DNA of 64,000 bases from Eledone cirrhosa (lineage: Eukaryota), in contig OZ024747.1 in assembly GCA_964016885.1 (NCBI GenBank), positions 82,584,001-82,648,000 of the forward strand, in the 5' to 3' direction. This document shows positions 2,327-60,389 of this stretch, in pieces. The notes below the pieces were generated by a model. The model was not told the DNA's origin. It did no database searches and worked only from the letters and a program-made list of their open reading frames with translations. The position numbers and the translations under genes were made by a program. Numbering within the stretch: the stretch's first letter is position 1; the number at the start of each line of letters is the position of its first letter.

Positions 2327-2719
2327 AAAAAATAGAGGTGTAACACAGGAGTTGTGATATATTAGTGAAAGGAAAAGAAAATGCTGGCAAATTTTTCCCA
2401 GTGAAAAATAGTTTAATTAGGAATAAGTATAAATTAGTAATAAGTATTAGTTAGTATTCAGTTTTAGTTTTAAGTTTTTACCGGTTGCGCATTTCTAATG
2501 CTTTTCAAAAATAATTTTGAGATAGAGCGCTCGTGATGTTTGATTAGAGCAAACATCACGAGCGCTCTATCTCAAAATTATTTTTGAAAAGCATTAGAAA
2601 TGCGCAACCGGTAAAAACTTAAACTAAAACTGAATACTAACCAATACTTATTACTAATTTATACTTATTCCTAATTAAACTATTTTTCACTGAGAAAAAT
2701 TTGTCAGCATTTTCTTTTC

Positions 2720-2723
<4 letters not shown>
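2325..2723 (-). mobile_element. (TA)n-embedded long palindrome, probable PLE 3' fragment with inverted end
   Basis: ~175-bp near-perfect arms 2368-2542 / 2550-2723, 7-nt loop ATTAGAG, ~40-bp unpaired tail, (TA)n flanks. Confidence 0.65.
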
Positions 2724-48321: not shown

Positions 48322-48649
48322 TAACAGATTAAAGTTTAAGCAAAGAATCGGTGCTTTCACCCTTAACGAGATCTTCTGAAACTAACAAAGTCAATCTGTG
48401 AACGCAGAAGTGAATATTTCTATATATATATATATATATTTCGTTTCTGAATTTGTTTAGCAAGATTCTTTATCTGAAATCGTGTGTTGAAACCGATATT
48501 GTTATACTTTGGGAGGGTCATGTTGCAAATAAGAAACACACGCACCAGTTGCTTTCACTTCAATTTATTATATATTTATAAATTTACAAATTTATAAATT
48601 TCTGGTTGGTTGGTTGGTTGGTTCCACAACCAGATAGTTGTTTATATAT

Positions 48650-48694
48650 AGTCATAGTTCTTTCGTCACACACTCTGTGACCTCTTCAGTGACT
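48650..48694 (-). ncRNA. Hammerhead-like motif in the PLE 3' region
   Basis: AGTCA-CTGAAGA-G-GTCACA gagtg TGTGAC-GAAA-GAAC-TA^TGACT. Confidence 0.65.
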
Positions 48695-49106
48695 GGGGAT
48701 TCCTTTCTTTGTTTCTGTGCCTCTCCTTTGTTCTGTCCTACGCCATTTTGTTTCTGTGTGTGTGTTGTGTGCTCAGTCTGCGCATGCGCCACATCCGGGT
48801 GTCTGTGTGTGTTTATGTTCATTTATTTATTTGTTTATTTACATGTTACTGGTTGGTTGTTTGTTCTATGTGTGTGTGTGTTTTCATTTTGTCCTTAATT
48901 GTAAGTTGTGATGTTGCTGTTCCACTCATATTTTCTATTTAATTTTGGTTGTAATTCTTTTATGTTTATTGCCTCTGTAATTTGTCTAAACATTGCGTCT
49001 TTTCTGTGTGTAGATTCTATTTTTATTTCTACACAACACACACACAGAAACAAAATGGCGTAGGACAGAACAAAGGAGAGGCACAGAAACAAAGAAAGGA
49101 ATCCCC

Positions 49107-49151
49107 AGTCACTGAAGAGGTCACAGAGTGTGTGACGAAAGAACTATGACT
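49107..49151 (+). ncRNA. Hammerhead-like motif in the inverted copy
   Basis: Same motif as 48650-48694 on the opposite strand. Confidence 0.65.
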
Positions 49152-49293
49152 ATATATAAACAACTATCTGGTTGTGGAACCAACCAACCAACCAGAAATT
49201 TATAAAATTGTAAATTTATAAATATATAATAAATTGAAGTGAAAGCAACTGGTGCGTGTGTTTCTTATTGGCAACATGACCCTCCCAAAGTAT

Positions 49294-50328: not shown

Positions 50329-50538
50329 ACAAAGGAATTGTGGTAAGGAACCAGATGGACCATAACACACCAGAGTACTCAATACTTAGGGTAGTAGAGT
50401 GGGAAATAGAAAAAAGTATGACCCCGAAGGCAAAGCTCAAGCCGTTTCGACGGCTATTTCTGGACTGAATAGCCAGAAATAGTCCAGAAATAGCCGTCGA
50501 AACGGCTTGAGCTCTGCCGTCGGGGTTATACTTTTTCC
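50328..50538 (-). mobile_element. (TA)n-embedded fold-back insert (family shared with 33646 and 60115)
   Basis: 58-bp arms 50409-50466 / 50481-50538 plus 80-bp tail. Confidence 0.8.
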
Positions 50539-50945
50539 TATATATATATATATATATATACTTATGTGTTTCTGCAGTACATAATATATATATATCTGTG
50601 TATGATAGATTCACTTATTTAACTTTTATCATCTTCAATATTTAGTTTTGTCAATATATTGATGTAAAAATTGAACCAATCGCTAGGTCATAATTTTTGT
50701 TTGATTATCGATTACCAGCTTATCTGGTTGAAGATCATCTCTATGACTCTTTCCATCTTTCTTATATTTGATATTCATACATTTCTGCACGTCTATAAAT
50801 CTAAAATATATACGTTACAGTGTGTATGTGTGTATATATATATGATTAAGCACTAAACTTCGCCATTTTTCATTGTTCAACTCACACACACACACACCTA
50901 TATATATATATATATATATTCATACATAGATACACACATACACAG

Positions 50946-53510: not shown

Positions 53511-53879
53511 GGCGGTGGATTGGCAGTATCGGTAGAGGATCGGACGCCATGCTTTGACGCATAGAGTTACGGCCCTTTCCATTCTGAAATCAAATCCCGC
53601 CGAGGTTAACTTTGCCTTTCATCCTTACGGAGTCGATAAAATAAAGTACCAGTAATACACTGGGATAATTGCTGGCCTTGTGCCAAAAGTAGAAACAATT
53701 ATTATCATTATAGGAATTCCATCGGACATGTATCGTAGCGTATGGTTACGGCCCTTTACGTTCTGAGTTCAAATCCCGCCGAGGTTAACTTTGCCTTTCA
53801 TCCTTACGGGGTCGATAAAATAAAGTACCAGTAATGCACTAGATAATTGCTGGCCTTGTGCCAAAACTAGAAACAGTTA
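53511..53879 (+). mobile_element. Tandem SINE-A pair (53511-53703 full; 53722-53879 5'-truncated)
   Basis: Two cores; TTAGTTAATG repeated on both sides of the pair. Confidence 0.88.
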
Positions 53880-53960
53880 TTAGTTAATGTTTTTGTTGAA
53901 AATTGTTGATGATAAGGCTATTGATATTCCCATTATAGTGAATACTTATTCACTATAATG

Positions 53961-54131
53961 GGCACAAGGACAGCAATTACCCCAGTGTATTACTGGTACT
54001 TTATTTTATCGACCTGTAAGGATGAAAGGCAAAGTTAACCTCGGCGGGATTTTAATTCGGAACGTAAAGGGCCGTAACTCTTTGCTACAAAGCATGGCGT
54101 CCGACCATCTACCGATACTGCCAATCCACCA
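53961..54131 (-). mobile_element. SINE-A copy lacking its 3' tail, with a 16-bp TSD
   Basis: CCCATTATAGTGAATA at 53929-53944 and 54132-54147. Confidence 0.88.
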
Positions 54132-54631: not shown

Positions 54632-54677
<46 letters not shown>

Positions 54678-54684
<7 letters not shown>

Positions 54685-55236
54685 ATTAAAAAAATAATGA
54701 ATAAAACAATGAAACAGTTCCTTATATTAAACAAAAAAAGTTCATTATTTAACGATCGTTTCTAGGACATATATGTGTTAGAATTGGCATGCATATTCAA
54801 CAGATCTATGTACAAAATTATACAAAATTATACAAACTATCAAATCTAATATACATACCAACACATACATATGCCGTCTTCAGAAATAATGCATTATTTC
54901 TGAAGACGGCATATGTATGTGTTGGTATGTATATTAGATTTGATAGTTTGTATAATTTTGTATAATTTTGTACATAGATCTGTTGAATATGCATGCCAAT
55001 TCTAACACATATATGTCCTAGAAACGATCGTTAAATAATGAACTTTTTTTGTTTAATATAAGGAACTGTTTCATTGTTTTATTCATTATTTTTTTAATAC
55101 TTTATCTTGACTCTGTATTCCGTTTATCTTTCACCGAAAGTGATTTTTGAATGCATCTCTTCTTTCCATGATATCCTGATTACATTGAGTTCTTCATACG
55201 GATTGGACACTACCGTAAATTCTTGGTAGATTTATC

Positions 55237-55239
<3 letters not shown>
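54678..55239 (+). mobile_element. (TA)n-embedded element: 428-bp loopless palindrome (54678-55105) plus 134-bp tail
   Basis: Centre AAATAATG|CATTATTT at 54891/54892; arms appear identical by eye. Confidence 0.85.
54892..55040 (+). ncRNA. Type-I hammerhead with very long stem II (~114 nt); mirror copy on minus at 54743-54891
   Basis: CATTATTT-CTGAAGA-[54907-55020]-GAAA-CGATCG-TT^AAATAATG; 8-bp stem I, palindromic GATC loop III. Confidence 0.78.
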
Positions 55240-55326
<87 letters not shown>

Positions 55327-56121: not shown

Positions 56122-56476
56122 ATTAAATAAATGGAAAACTATATTTATAAAACCATATTTATTTCATTATATATATTTCGGGGATATCATATTAACACTG
56201 CTAGCGTAAACCTCTCCAAATGAAGTTGATGTTTATTACGGTATGTCGAATATATTTATCTATAAAACTGTTTATATTGTATTTTGTCTGATGAAGGCAT
56301 AGCATATTGTTAATATGATATCCCCGAAATATATATAATGAAATAAATATGGTTTTATAAATATAGTTTTCCATTTATTTAATATTGTAAATATACTCCA
56401 AATATTTGTCGAGTGCTTTTATATCAGTTATAAATATTTACTAGTTGTAACCCAACAATTTTAAATATAACTTTAC

Positions 56477-56612: not shown

Positions 56613-56680
<68 letters not shown>

Positions 56681-56683
<3 letters not shown>

Positions 56684-56830
56684 TTTATCCCGGGTTCAAT
56701 CGGGGGTAACCACAGTAAGTAAGATATTCAATACATAACAGAGTATAAATATTTAATATAGAAATGGCTTCTACAGGCTTCTCCCGAATGAAACAGTTCT
56801 AGTCCTGTAGAAGCCATTTCTATATTAAAT
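56681..56830 (-). mobile_element. (TA)n-embedded fold-back insert (family shared with 33528-33625)
   Basis: 27-bp arms 56751-56777 / 56804-56830; GAAAC..GTC in the spacer. Confidence 0.7.
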
Positions 56831-57323
56831 ATATATATATATATGTGTGTGTGCGCGTGCATATATGTATGCATATTTGATCAGAAATACAGTATATATA
56901 ATTATATATACAGAGATGTTCAAACACATACACAGACGATGACAAAATAACTTTTTTCTCTTTCTATAACATACACAAATACAGACGCAAAGATGGCGGC
57001 GTAGACGAAGTAGTCGAAACCTACACTTCCACCATTCCTACCATGGATGACTCTATCAATAGTCTGTGATGATATATCAACGTAGATACTTATTTATCAA
57101 ACTATTGACGTCCCAAATGATGACGGTTGATAACCTTACGATTAAATATACTGAAATATTTATGTACCCAATCGAACTGAGGGCTCTTCAGTCAATAATT
57201 ATTTCAAATTAGCTGTATTTGTCAGAGTAAGATGGTGGGAGGCTACATTGGAGTTGTAATGGGGTGAGAACTAGTGGGTAAAGTTGAGATAAATTGTGTG
57301 CTATACATACATATATACATACT

Positions 57324-60114: not shown

Positions 60115-60119
<5 letters not shown>

Positions 60120-60306
60120 AACAAGTAAGACCCCGACGGCTGAGCTCAAGCCGTTTCGACGGCTAATTCTGTACAGAATTTGCCGTCGAAACGGCTTGAG
60201 CTCAGCCGTCGGGGTCTTACTTGTTCCTATTACCCACTCTACTACCCTAAGTATTGAGTATTTTGGTGCGTTATGGTCCACCTGGTTCCTTACCACATTT
60301 CCTTCG

Positions 60307-60308
<2 letters not shown>
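60115..60308 (+). mobile_element. (TA)n-embedded fold-back insert: 116-bp loopless palindrome plus 78-bp tail
   Basis: Centre CTGT|ACAG at 60172/60173, one T.T mismatch; tail matches 50328-50408 in reverse and 33711-33751. Confidence 0.82.

Positions 60309-60389
<81 letters not shown>

What the first reader, a model, noticed from the sequence alone, without database searches (positions are those of the whole stretch)
54678..55239. 428-bp loopless palindrome encoding back-to-back hammerheads with an unusually long stem II
Seen: the symmetry axis falls exactly at the first base of stem I, so each strand carries a full hammerhead with an 8-bp stem I, intact core, CGATCG helix III and GUU site. 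Stem II is ~114 nt (ATGTGTTGG/CTAACACAT and ATGTATATT/AATATGCAT pairings), far longer than in the other motifs here and probably invisible to standard searches. A read-through transcript would instead form 214 bp of dsRNA that sequesters the ribozyme. Perfect palindromes this long are normally unstable, so it may be very recent.
Basis: partly seen in the sequence, partly recalled or inferred. Interest (0 to 1): 0.7.

Follow-up and report, generated by a model that had tools for sequence, protein, structure and literature searches.

The report
Penelope-like stub palindrome marks RNA start
This DNA palindrome is one of hundreds of stub insertions of a young Penelope-like jumping gene, likely made when both cut ends of a TA repeat each copied the front of one element RNA back to its start and were joined head to head, which would show which RNA these poorly understood elements copy.

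Summary
The 428-bp perfect palindrome and the two hammerhead motifs are real, but they are not a one-off. They are the smallest insertion form of a young Penelope-like retrotransposon with Hydra-clade motifs. 651 loci in this 3-Gb genome fold back at the same spot, against 5, 0 and 21 at three control spots. In 49 of 50 sampled loci one arm ends at about +213 and the other at about +350, both in (TA)n. There are 25 different joints, and the two arms share one haplotype in 48 of 49 loci. Best reading: twin target-primed reverse transcription from two internal start sites. Both cDNAs run off the RNA's likely capped 5' end, which coincides with stem I, and are then end-joined. The long stem II is family-wide with compensatory changes. 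However, G10.1-C11.1 is replaced by C·A, stem I is unstable in a monomer, and most cDNAs read through the cut site, so the ribozyme is probably slow. No RNA data were available, and this locus was not read-validated. Inverted Penelope palindromes are published; earlier scan notes reached the same run-off reading on other DNA of this genome.

The parts
54635..54679 (.). left (TA)n target microsatellite; its last two bases (AT) also match the element at start site A
   Evidence: sequence; 46-nt run
54678..54891 (-). short inverted arm: element positions 0 to +213 (0 = 54892, +1 = 54893), inferred cDNA from reverse-transcription start site A
54743..54891 (-). mirror-image type I hammerhead motif (predicted cut after 54751 on the minus strand)
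54889..54894 (.). head-to-head joint ATGCAT; both arms reach position 0; this exact joint occurs once among the first 100 of 128 listed matches
54892..55242 (+). long direct arm: element positions 0 to +350, inferred cDNA from start site B
54893..54893 (+). inferred transcription start (+1, the A of the initiator-like TCATT in the parent element)
   Evidence: 61 of 100 arm ends reach exactly this base; 407 arms carry a non-genomic base next to it; no RNA data
54892..55040 (+). type I minimal hammerhead motif: stem I, CUGAAGA core, long stem II, GAAAC, palindromic CGAUCG helix III, GUU triplet (predicted cut after 55032)
54907..55020 (+). 114-nt stem II hairpin with C·A opposite each other at 10.1/11.1
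55106..55242 (+). one-sided tail between the two inferred reverse-transcription start sites (about 135 nt; 30-40 nt in published elements)
   Evidence: concept from PMC11167929
55240..55323 (.). right (TA)n target microsatellite; its first three bases (ATA) also match the element at start site B
   Evidence: 84-nt run

Best explanation
The 54678-55242 unit is the smallest insertion form of a young Penelope-like retrotransposon, likely built when both nicked strands of a (TA)n repeat primed reverse transcription on one uncleaved element RNA at two fixed internal sites and both copies ran off the RNA's predicted capped start before being joined head to head. Shown: the repeat family and its RT/endonuclease ORF, the two fixed outer ends in (TA)n, the sharp joint hotspot at +1, the varied joints, and the shared haplotype of the two arms. 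Inferred: +1 is a capped transcription start; one RNA molecule serves both arms, the longer cDNA displacing the shorter; the 3' ends are joined by blunt or 1-2-nt microhomology end-joining. The axis sits at stem I only because the hammerhead begins at the RNA's first bases. The hammerhead is predicted to need a dimer and to be slow; a small minority of copies end at its cut site.
For: Family: 40 scored of 1355 candidates were 99-100% identical. Downstream ORF starts at about +501 and has RWR, DKT, CxCX5C, CxxC and CxH motifs; homologs show weak RVT_1 (1 of 8) and GIY-YIG (2 of 8) matches. Hotspot: 651 loci versus 5 inside stem II, 0 upstream and 21 near the cut site. Fixed ends: 49 of 50 loci have one long and one short arm; 18 of 20 long insertions do too; 394 and 419 raw reads of two other samples carry (AT)n after 55105. 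Independent origin: 25 joint strings in 50 loci; the commonest joint sits on 9 haplotypes in 11 loci. One template: same haplotype in both arms in 48 of 49 loci, permutation mean 5.6, maximum 15 of 10000 shuffles; 9 locus-private variants are shared by both arms. Of 9 long insertions with a partner starting at +213, none stops at +1 (8 pass, 1 stops at +58). In 20 hand-picked +1 ends with a non-palindromic joint, no partner runs far upstream. Two primed cDNAs rather than fold-back: the short-start arm is the longer one in L037 and L050; zero-loop joints occur in 11 of 50 loci; L022 has discordant arms. Cap-like mark: after the cDNA end at +1 come C in 407, A/T in 1233 and G-then-not-A in 128 matches. 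Published support: two internal start sites, both strands nicked and extended, a predicted dimer, and uncleaved RNA as the main template (PMC11167929).
Against: No RNA run was available, so the start site, cap, expression and cleavage are untested. The extra C can often be read as templated by the partner arm (by my count of the 100 listed, 26 are the ambiguous ATCAT class and 11 the TC-microhomology class), and G-ended joins to (TA)n are about as common as C-ended ones. An AATAAA lies 9-14 nt upstream of +1 in both subfamilies, so a 3'-processing cut is an alternative source of the end. Arm identity could also come from one active source locus or from later gene conversion. Most long insertions have unequal 5' ends, so run-off does not explain them. 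No laid read or contig covers this locus's flanks. The element's own ORF pieces gave no Pfam RT or endonuclease match and no meaningful PDB match.
Confidence: 0.78

Rival explanations
1. Single cDNA fold-back: one cDNA runs off the RNA end, snaps back on itself and is copied out to +213, or the RNA self-primes on an antisense template as proposed for rotifer Penelope palindromes.
For: Arms are nearly always identical within a locus. Some joints look like snap-back products with a 5-nt loop (11 of 100 listed). Self-priming is the published reading (PMC3846280, passages).
Against: The outer end of the short arm is fixed and shows microhomology to the TA target. The short-start arm can be the longer one. 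Zero-loop joints cannot be intramolecular hairpins (11 of 50). One locus has arms from two haplotypes. Most long insertions have large unequal spacers.
Confidence: 0.1
2. Same twin priming, but +1 is not a capped start: it is an end made by 3' processing downstream of the AATAAA or by a reverse-transcriptase stop.
For: AATAAA followed by a CA dinucleotide is kept in both subfamilies; a weak AT-rich hairpin is predicted just upstream of +1; 17 of 100 arm ends reach only +2.
Against: The enzyme passes the -38 kcal/mol stem II with few stops (5 palindromes). A cut after CA would start at +2, whereas 535 matches (407 + 128) extend to +1 or 0 before diverging. TCATT resembles the initiator-like words noted in other pLTRs.
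Confidence: 0.12
3. A palindromic non-autonomous master element (MITE- or retrozyme-like) that is copied as a unit.
For: Stereotyped size and ends; two joint strings are common (11 and 9 of 50).
Against: 25 joint strings in 50 loci; identical joints lie on different haplotypes (9 haplotypes in 11 loci, 7 in 8); the window's joint is seen once among 100 of 128 listed; no tandem monomers.
Confidence: 0.04
4. Assembly or library fold-back artefact at this locus.
For: No laid read or contig covers the flanks of this locus.
Against: Artefacts would not give two fixed outer ends in (TA)n with varied joints at one element position. Short-read contigs cross the centre with 4, 2 or 1 letters left out, matching the genomic joint classes, and 7-18 raw reads per run cover 54891-54892 in three other samples.
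Confidence: 0.03

Closest known systems
EN+ Penelope-like insertions with an inverted 5'-truncated pLTR and one-sided tail (Craig 2021 PMC8557442, passages and section 11; Arkhipova 2013 PMC3846280, passages)
   Same: Head-to-head inverted copy, palindrome at the inverted junction, tail on one side, microsatellite target, hammerhead in the pLTR.
   Different: Here a large share of insertions are stubs whose two arms stop at one base; the tail is about 135 nt rather than 30-40; the evidence favours a sense, likely capped template rather than antisense self-priming.
Poseidon element of the green anole, in vitro (Frangieh 2024 PMC11167929, parts 1-2 of 4 read)
   Same: Two internal reverse-transcription start sites define the tail; both target strands are nicked and extended; uncleaved RNA is the main template.
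   Different: There the start sites lie inside the ORF, without homology to the cut DNA; here they lie in the 5' UTR with 2-3 nt of AT microhomology. The parts read do not treat how the two cDNAs are joined.
Hydra clade of C-terminal EN+ PLEs (Craig 2021, section 11)
   Same: RW(K/R), DKT, CxCX5C, CxxC and CxH motifs; (TA)n insertion; hammerhead present.
   Different: The unit is about 5.6 kb because of a long repeated 3' UTR (Hydra generally under 3 kb); RWR instead of RWK; no tree was built.
Minimal PLE hammerheads (Cervera and de la Pena 2014 PMC4209133, parts 1-2 of 4 read)
   Same: Type I, extra base after A9, palindromic helix III, dimer-type architecture; opposite-strand pairs 100-700 bp apart were already noted in Schistosoma.
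   Different: The stem II region is 102-116 nt against helices of 6-8 bp there; their highly conserved G10.1-C11.1 pair is absent.
L1 twin priming, and retroviral strong-stop DNA (both recalled, not from a call)
   Same: Two target ends prime two cDNAs that join head to head; run-off at the capped RNA end.
   Different: In L1 the two cDNAs cover different parts of the RNA; here they overlap over 213 nt. No sign of a strand transfer was found.

Membership tests
EN+ Penelope-like element | Single ORF with PLE-type RT and C-terminal GIY-YIG endonuclease | tested here: met
   Natural copy L109 holds the ORF in two frames (174 and 713 aa); 28 homologs found; weak RVT_1 and GIY-YIG matches in homologs only, below Pfam cut-offs; motifs align.
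EN+ Penelope-like element | pLTR occurs both before the ORF and after the 3' UTR (partial tandem) | tested here: met
   The hammerhead region precedes the ORF in L040/L109 and follows the 3' UTR in L038, L039, L041 and L049.
EN+ Penelope-like element | Inverted 5'-truncated copy and one-sided tail | tested here: met
   49 of 50 stubs; 18 of 20 long pairs.
Hydra clade | RWK, DKT, CxCX5C linker, CxxC and CxH in the endonuclease | tested here: met
   RWR, DKT, CNC-x5-C, CRLC and CNH read in alignment A1; definition.
Hydra clade | Insertion into (TA)n | tested here: met
Hydra clade | Generally short (under 3 kb) | tested here: not met
   ORF about 2.4 kb but unit about 5.6 kb; a tendency in the paper rather than a strict criterion.
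Hydra clade | Phylogenetic placement with named Hydra families | not tested
   The supplement's metadata table was searched; no sequences were compared and no tree was built.
Type I minimal hammerhead ribozyme | CUGANGA and GAAA core, NUH triplet, stem I | tested here: met
   invariant in 21 of 21 aligned copies chosen by this motif; a GUA variant keeps NUH.
Type I minimal hammerhead ribozyme | G10.1-C11.1 pair closing stem II next to the core | tested here: not met
   C·A in this register in both subfamilies; only 17 motifs genome-wide have a base other than A before GAAAC.
Type I minimal hammerhead ribozyme | Palindromic helix III allowing an active dimer | tested here: inconclusive
   The co-fold of two copies forms both stems I and an intermolecular helix III; prediction only.
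Type I minimal hammerhead ribozyme | Self-cleavage | not testable with these tools
   Indirect only: 10 of 100 listed and 15 of 23 matches are truncations at or next to the cut site, against 5 of 16 at one control position; half of the 10 are confounded by long microhomology.
Non-LTR retrozyme | Tandem hammerhead-bearing monomers without an ORF | tested here: not met
   Inverted pair derived from an ORF-bearing element; no tandem monomers at the locus; definition from bioRxiv 10.64898/2026.07.22.740005, part 1 of 5.

The most novel reading that the evidence does not exclude
Penelope-like elements copy one capped, uncleaved sense RNA twice over the same stretch, from two start sites and onto both ends of the DNA break. 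The hundreds of stub palindromes are a fossil map of the RNA's cap site and, in a minority, of its ribozyme cut. This replaces antisense self-priming as the origin of inverted pLTRs. The hammerhead with a 100-nt stem II and a C·A closing pair would be a slow or protein-gated variant sitting at the very first bases of the RNA.
Probability: 0.5. Interest if true: 0.68.

Novelty: new variant of a known kind. Interest (0 to 1): 0.48.

Why it matters
How Penelope-like elements build their inverted ends is described as undefined (PMC8557442), and the published explanation needs an antisense template (PMC3846280). The stub palindromes give base-level predictions: a capped 5' end at +1, one RNA for both arms, and two primed cDNAs. 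These can be tested with CAGE and with the existing in vitro system. The family also seeds a genome with hundreds of near-perfect 400-bp palindromes that persist and would give long double-stranded RNA if read through. It extends natural hammerheads to a 100-nt stem II without the usual closing pair.

Tried and rejected
Rfam: no hammerhead among the 150 listed of 177 window matches, nor in two targeted scans; the miRNA-family hits are below gathering scores and reflect hairpins and simple repeats. Sequencing runs: no RNA holder listed, which is no evidence on expression. Locus-level read validation failed because nothing laid on the flanks. Pfam and PDB searches with the element's own ORF were blank or noise. 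The protein atlas gave no answer. Lunse et al. 2017 on PLE hammerhead variants was not held, so I cannot say whether long stems II or C·A closing pairs are described there. RNA-editing marks, a lead from note e1-10323346: only 3 of 9 locus-private shared variants are A>G, so this was not supported in my sample. A two-RNA model in which the hammerhead dimer brings two templates together was rejected for most loci by haplotype sharing (1 discordant locus, L022, among 53). A retrovirus-like strand transfer at +1 was not supported (0 of 9 long insertions have a partner stopping at +1). A splice acceptor at +1, as in Drosophila Penelope, was rejected because no AG precedes it. Literature searches listed no paper tying PLE palindrome centres to a capped start; one search returned 0 papers; subscription journals and bioRxiv supplements are not covered. 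Rows dropped: L101 (divergent subfamily) was left out of the 49-locus haplotype test; L046 lacked the joint pattern. The 50 loci are the first 50 on contig C1 of 651.

Full report
Observation. The palindrome is exact: arms 54678-54891 and 54892-55105, 214 nt each, no loop. A type I hammerhead motif lies on each strand with an 8-bp stem I, a CUGAAGA core, a 114-nt stem II region, GAAAC, a GAUC loop and a GUU triplet. Stem II folds well (z -4.1). Rfam sees no hammerhead here or at a short-stem motif at 56288. Numbering below: 0 = 54892, +1 = 54893.

What it belongs to. The right arm plus tail is the end of a young repeat: 40 scored of 1355 candidates were 99-100% identical. Most of the 30 fetched copies continue upstream as an ordinary element and end at about +350 in (TA)n. 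Longer stretches show an ORF starting near +501 and a unit of about 5.6 kb with a long repeated 3' UTR. The ORF has RWR, DKT, CxCX5C, CxxC and CxH motifs, matching the description of the Hydra clade of Penelope-like elements (PMC8557442 section 11). Pfam support is weak and comes only from homologs. The genome is 3.0 Gb and one homolog is named from Octopus bimaculoides; an octopus host is an inference.

The palindrome is a common product. A pattern for head-to-head joints within 30 nt at stem I finds 651 loci. The same design finds 5 inside stem II, 0 about 60-90 nt upstream and 21 near the predicted cut site. One read-through haplotype gives 1353 matches. In the first 50 loci on contig C1, 49 have one long and one short arm by motif test; the 50th belongs to a divergent subfamily. 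The ends are fixed at about +213 and +350, in (TA)n, with 2-3 nt shared between element and target. Raw reads of two other samples show (AT)n after 55105 in 394 and 419 reads. The joints vary: 25 strings in 50 loci, and equal strings sit on different haplotypes, so each insertion formed separately. Nine of the 50 are loopless and perfect over 204-214 nt, so the window's copy is typical of a young family.

Mechanism. Two fixed outer ends with a tail between them match the two internal reverse-transcription start sites shown in vitro for an anole element, whose protein nicks and extends both target strands and mainly uses uncleaved RNA (PMC11167929). Both arms look independently primed. The arm starting at +213 is the longer one in L037 and L050 and the shorter in L031, L033, L039 and L041. 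Zero-loop joints, 11 of 50, cannot be intramolecular hairpins. L022 has arms of two haplotypes. Yet the arms usually share one template: same haplotype in 48 of 49 loci against 5.6 expected, plus 9 locus-private variants present in both arms. The stops are also correlated. None of 9 long insertions has a partner stopping at +1 (about 0.01 by hand if each arm stopped there independently 40% of the time), and none of 20 hand-picked +1 ends has a partner running far upstream. Three further long loci are cut at nearly the same upstream point in both arms (L034, L043, L048), but most long pairs are unequal.

Why the axis sits at stem I. 61 of 100 arm ends reach exactly +1 and 17 reach +2. [quoted passage not shown] After the cDNA end at +1 the next base is C in 407 matches, A or T in 1233, and the genomic G followed by a non-genomic base in 128. 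A non-genomic C is what copying a cap would add (recalled from L1). It occurs on both arms in some loci and directly against (TA)n in others. This is suggestive only: many cases can be read as templated by the partner arm, G-ended joins to (TA)n are as common, and an upstream AATAAA offers another source of a sharp end. The window's own joint reaches position 0 on both arms and appears once among 100 of 128 listed.

The ribozyme. The long stem II is a family trait, 102-116 nt in most copies, and persists in an older sister subfamily. Five of 9 basal pairs show changes on both sides; 95.8% of cells pair, against 37-49% for slid controls. These changes mostly separate two subfamilies, so they are few independent events. 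The closing pair is C·A instead of the G10.1-C11.1 that is highly conserved in PLE hammerheads (PMC4209133); only 17 motifs genome-wide differ at the A. Stem I has probability 0.08 or less in monomers starting at +1 but forms in a predicted dimer through the palindromic helix III. Every stub that reaches +1 was copied from RNA not cut at +141. A minority end at the cut: 10 of 100 listed (89 are a GUA variant, 1 GUC) and 15 of 23, against 5 of 16 at one control position; long microhomologies confound half of the 10. Low-level cleavage is plausible but not shown. A read-through transcript is predicted to form a 212-bp hairpin; no RNA data exist to test it.

Artefact check. Short-read contigs cross the centre with 4, 2 or 1 letters left out, matching the genomic joint classes, and a few raw reads cover the centre in three other samples. 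Nothing laid on this locus's flanks, so the class is validated and the single locus is not.

Comparison and novelty. Inverted pLTRs, tails and palindromic junctions are known, as are opposite-strand hammerhead pairs. The published mechanism is self-priming on an antisense template, with a sense template not excluded. My searches listed no paper linking the centre to a capped start; one key hammerhead paper was unavailable. Earlier notes of this scan reached the same run-off reading on other DNA of this genome; my reading was stated before that look-up, and they are not independent support. Verdict: a real, common Penelope-like insertion product, with useful new mechanistic evidence and an unusual hammerhead variant.

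Noticed in passing
window 60115-60309 and 50340-50548: Two copies of another mini-palindrome family in (TA)n with one long and one short arm; the centre falls inside a hammerhead-like stem II, so the CUGANGA half is missing.
   Followed up: no
window 56680-56832: A third short palindrome with unequal arms between (TA)n runs, likely another Penelope-like stub.
   Followed up: no
window 48560-49240: Inverted pair of hammerhead motifs (48689 minus, 49112 plus) with unequal arms and a spacer.
   Followed up: no
window 2380-2720: About 340-bp near-perfect palindrome with a 7-nt loop and no hammerhead motif found.
   Followed up: no
window 5480 (-), 16777 (-), 56288 (+): Further minimal hammerhead motifs with short stems II and palindromic helix III.
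   Followed up: partly
L007 / L036 and 5 of 100 rows: A SINE-like repeat is inserted at +1 of the element with a short duplication, and the same repeat end abuts +1 in both subfamilies; copies of that repeat also lie at window 53800-54130.
   Followed up: partly
genome-wide: A subfamily with a GUA triplet instead of GUU (89 of 100 listed, of 584 matches) keeps the NUH rule.
   Followed up: partly
L132-L145: Older sister subfamily with a different upstream sequence but the same AATAAA, six-base spacer and TCATT arrangement, and the same two outer ends.
   Followed up: partly
L149, L151, L153: Foreign or rearranged pieces of 60-170 nt captured between the arms at the joint.
   Followed up: no
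L038, L050, L040, L043: Upstream 5' ends recur near -396 and -312 to -320, possibly minor start sites.
   Followed up: no
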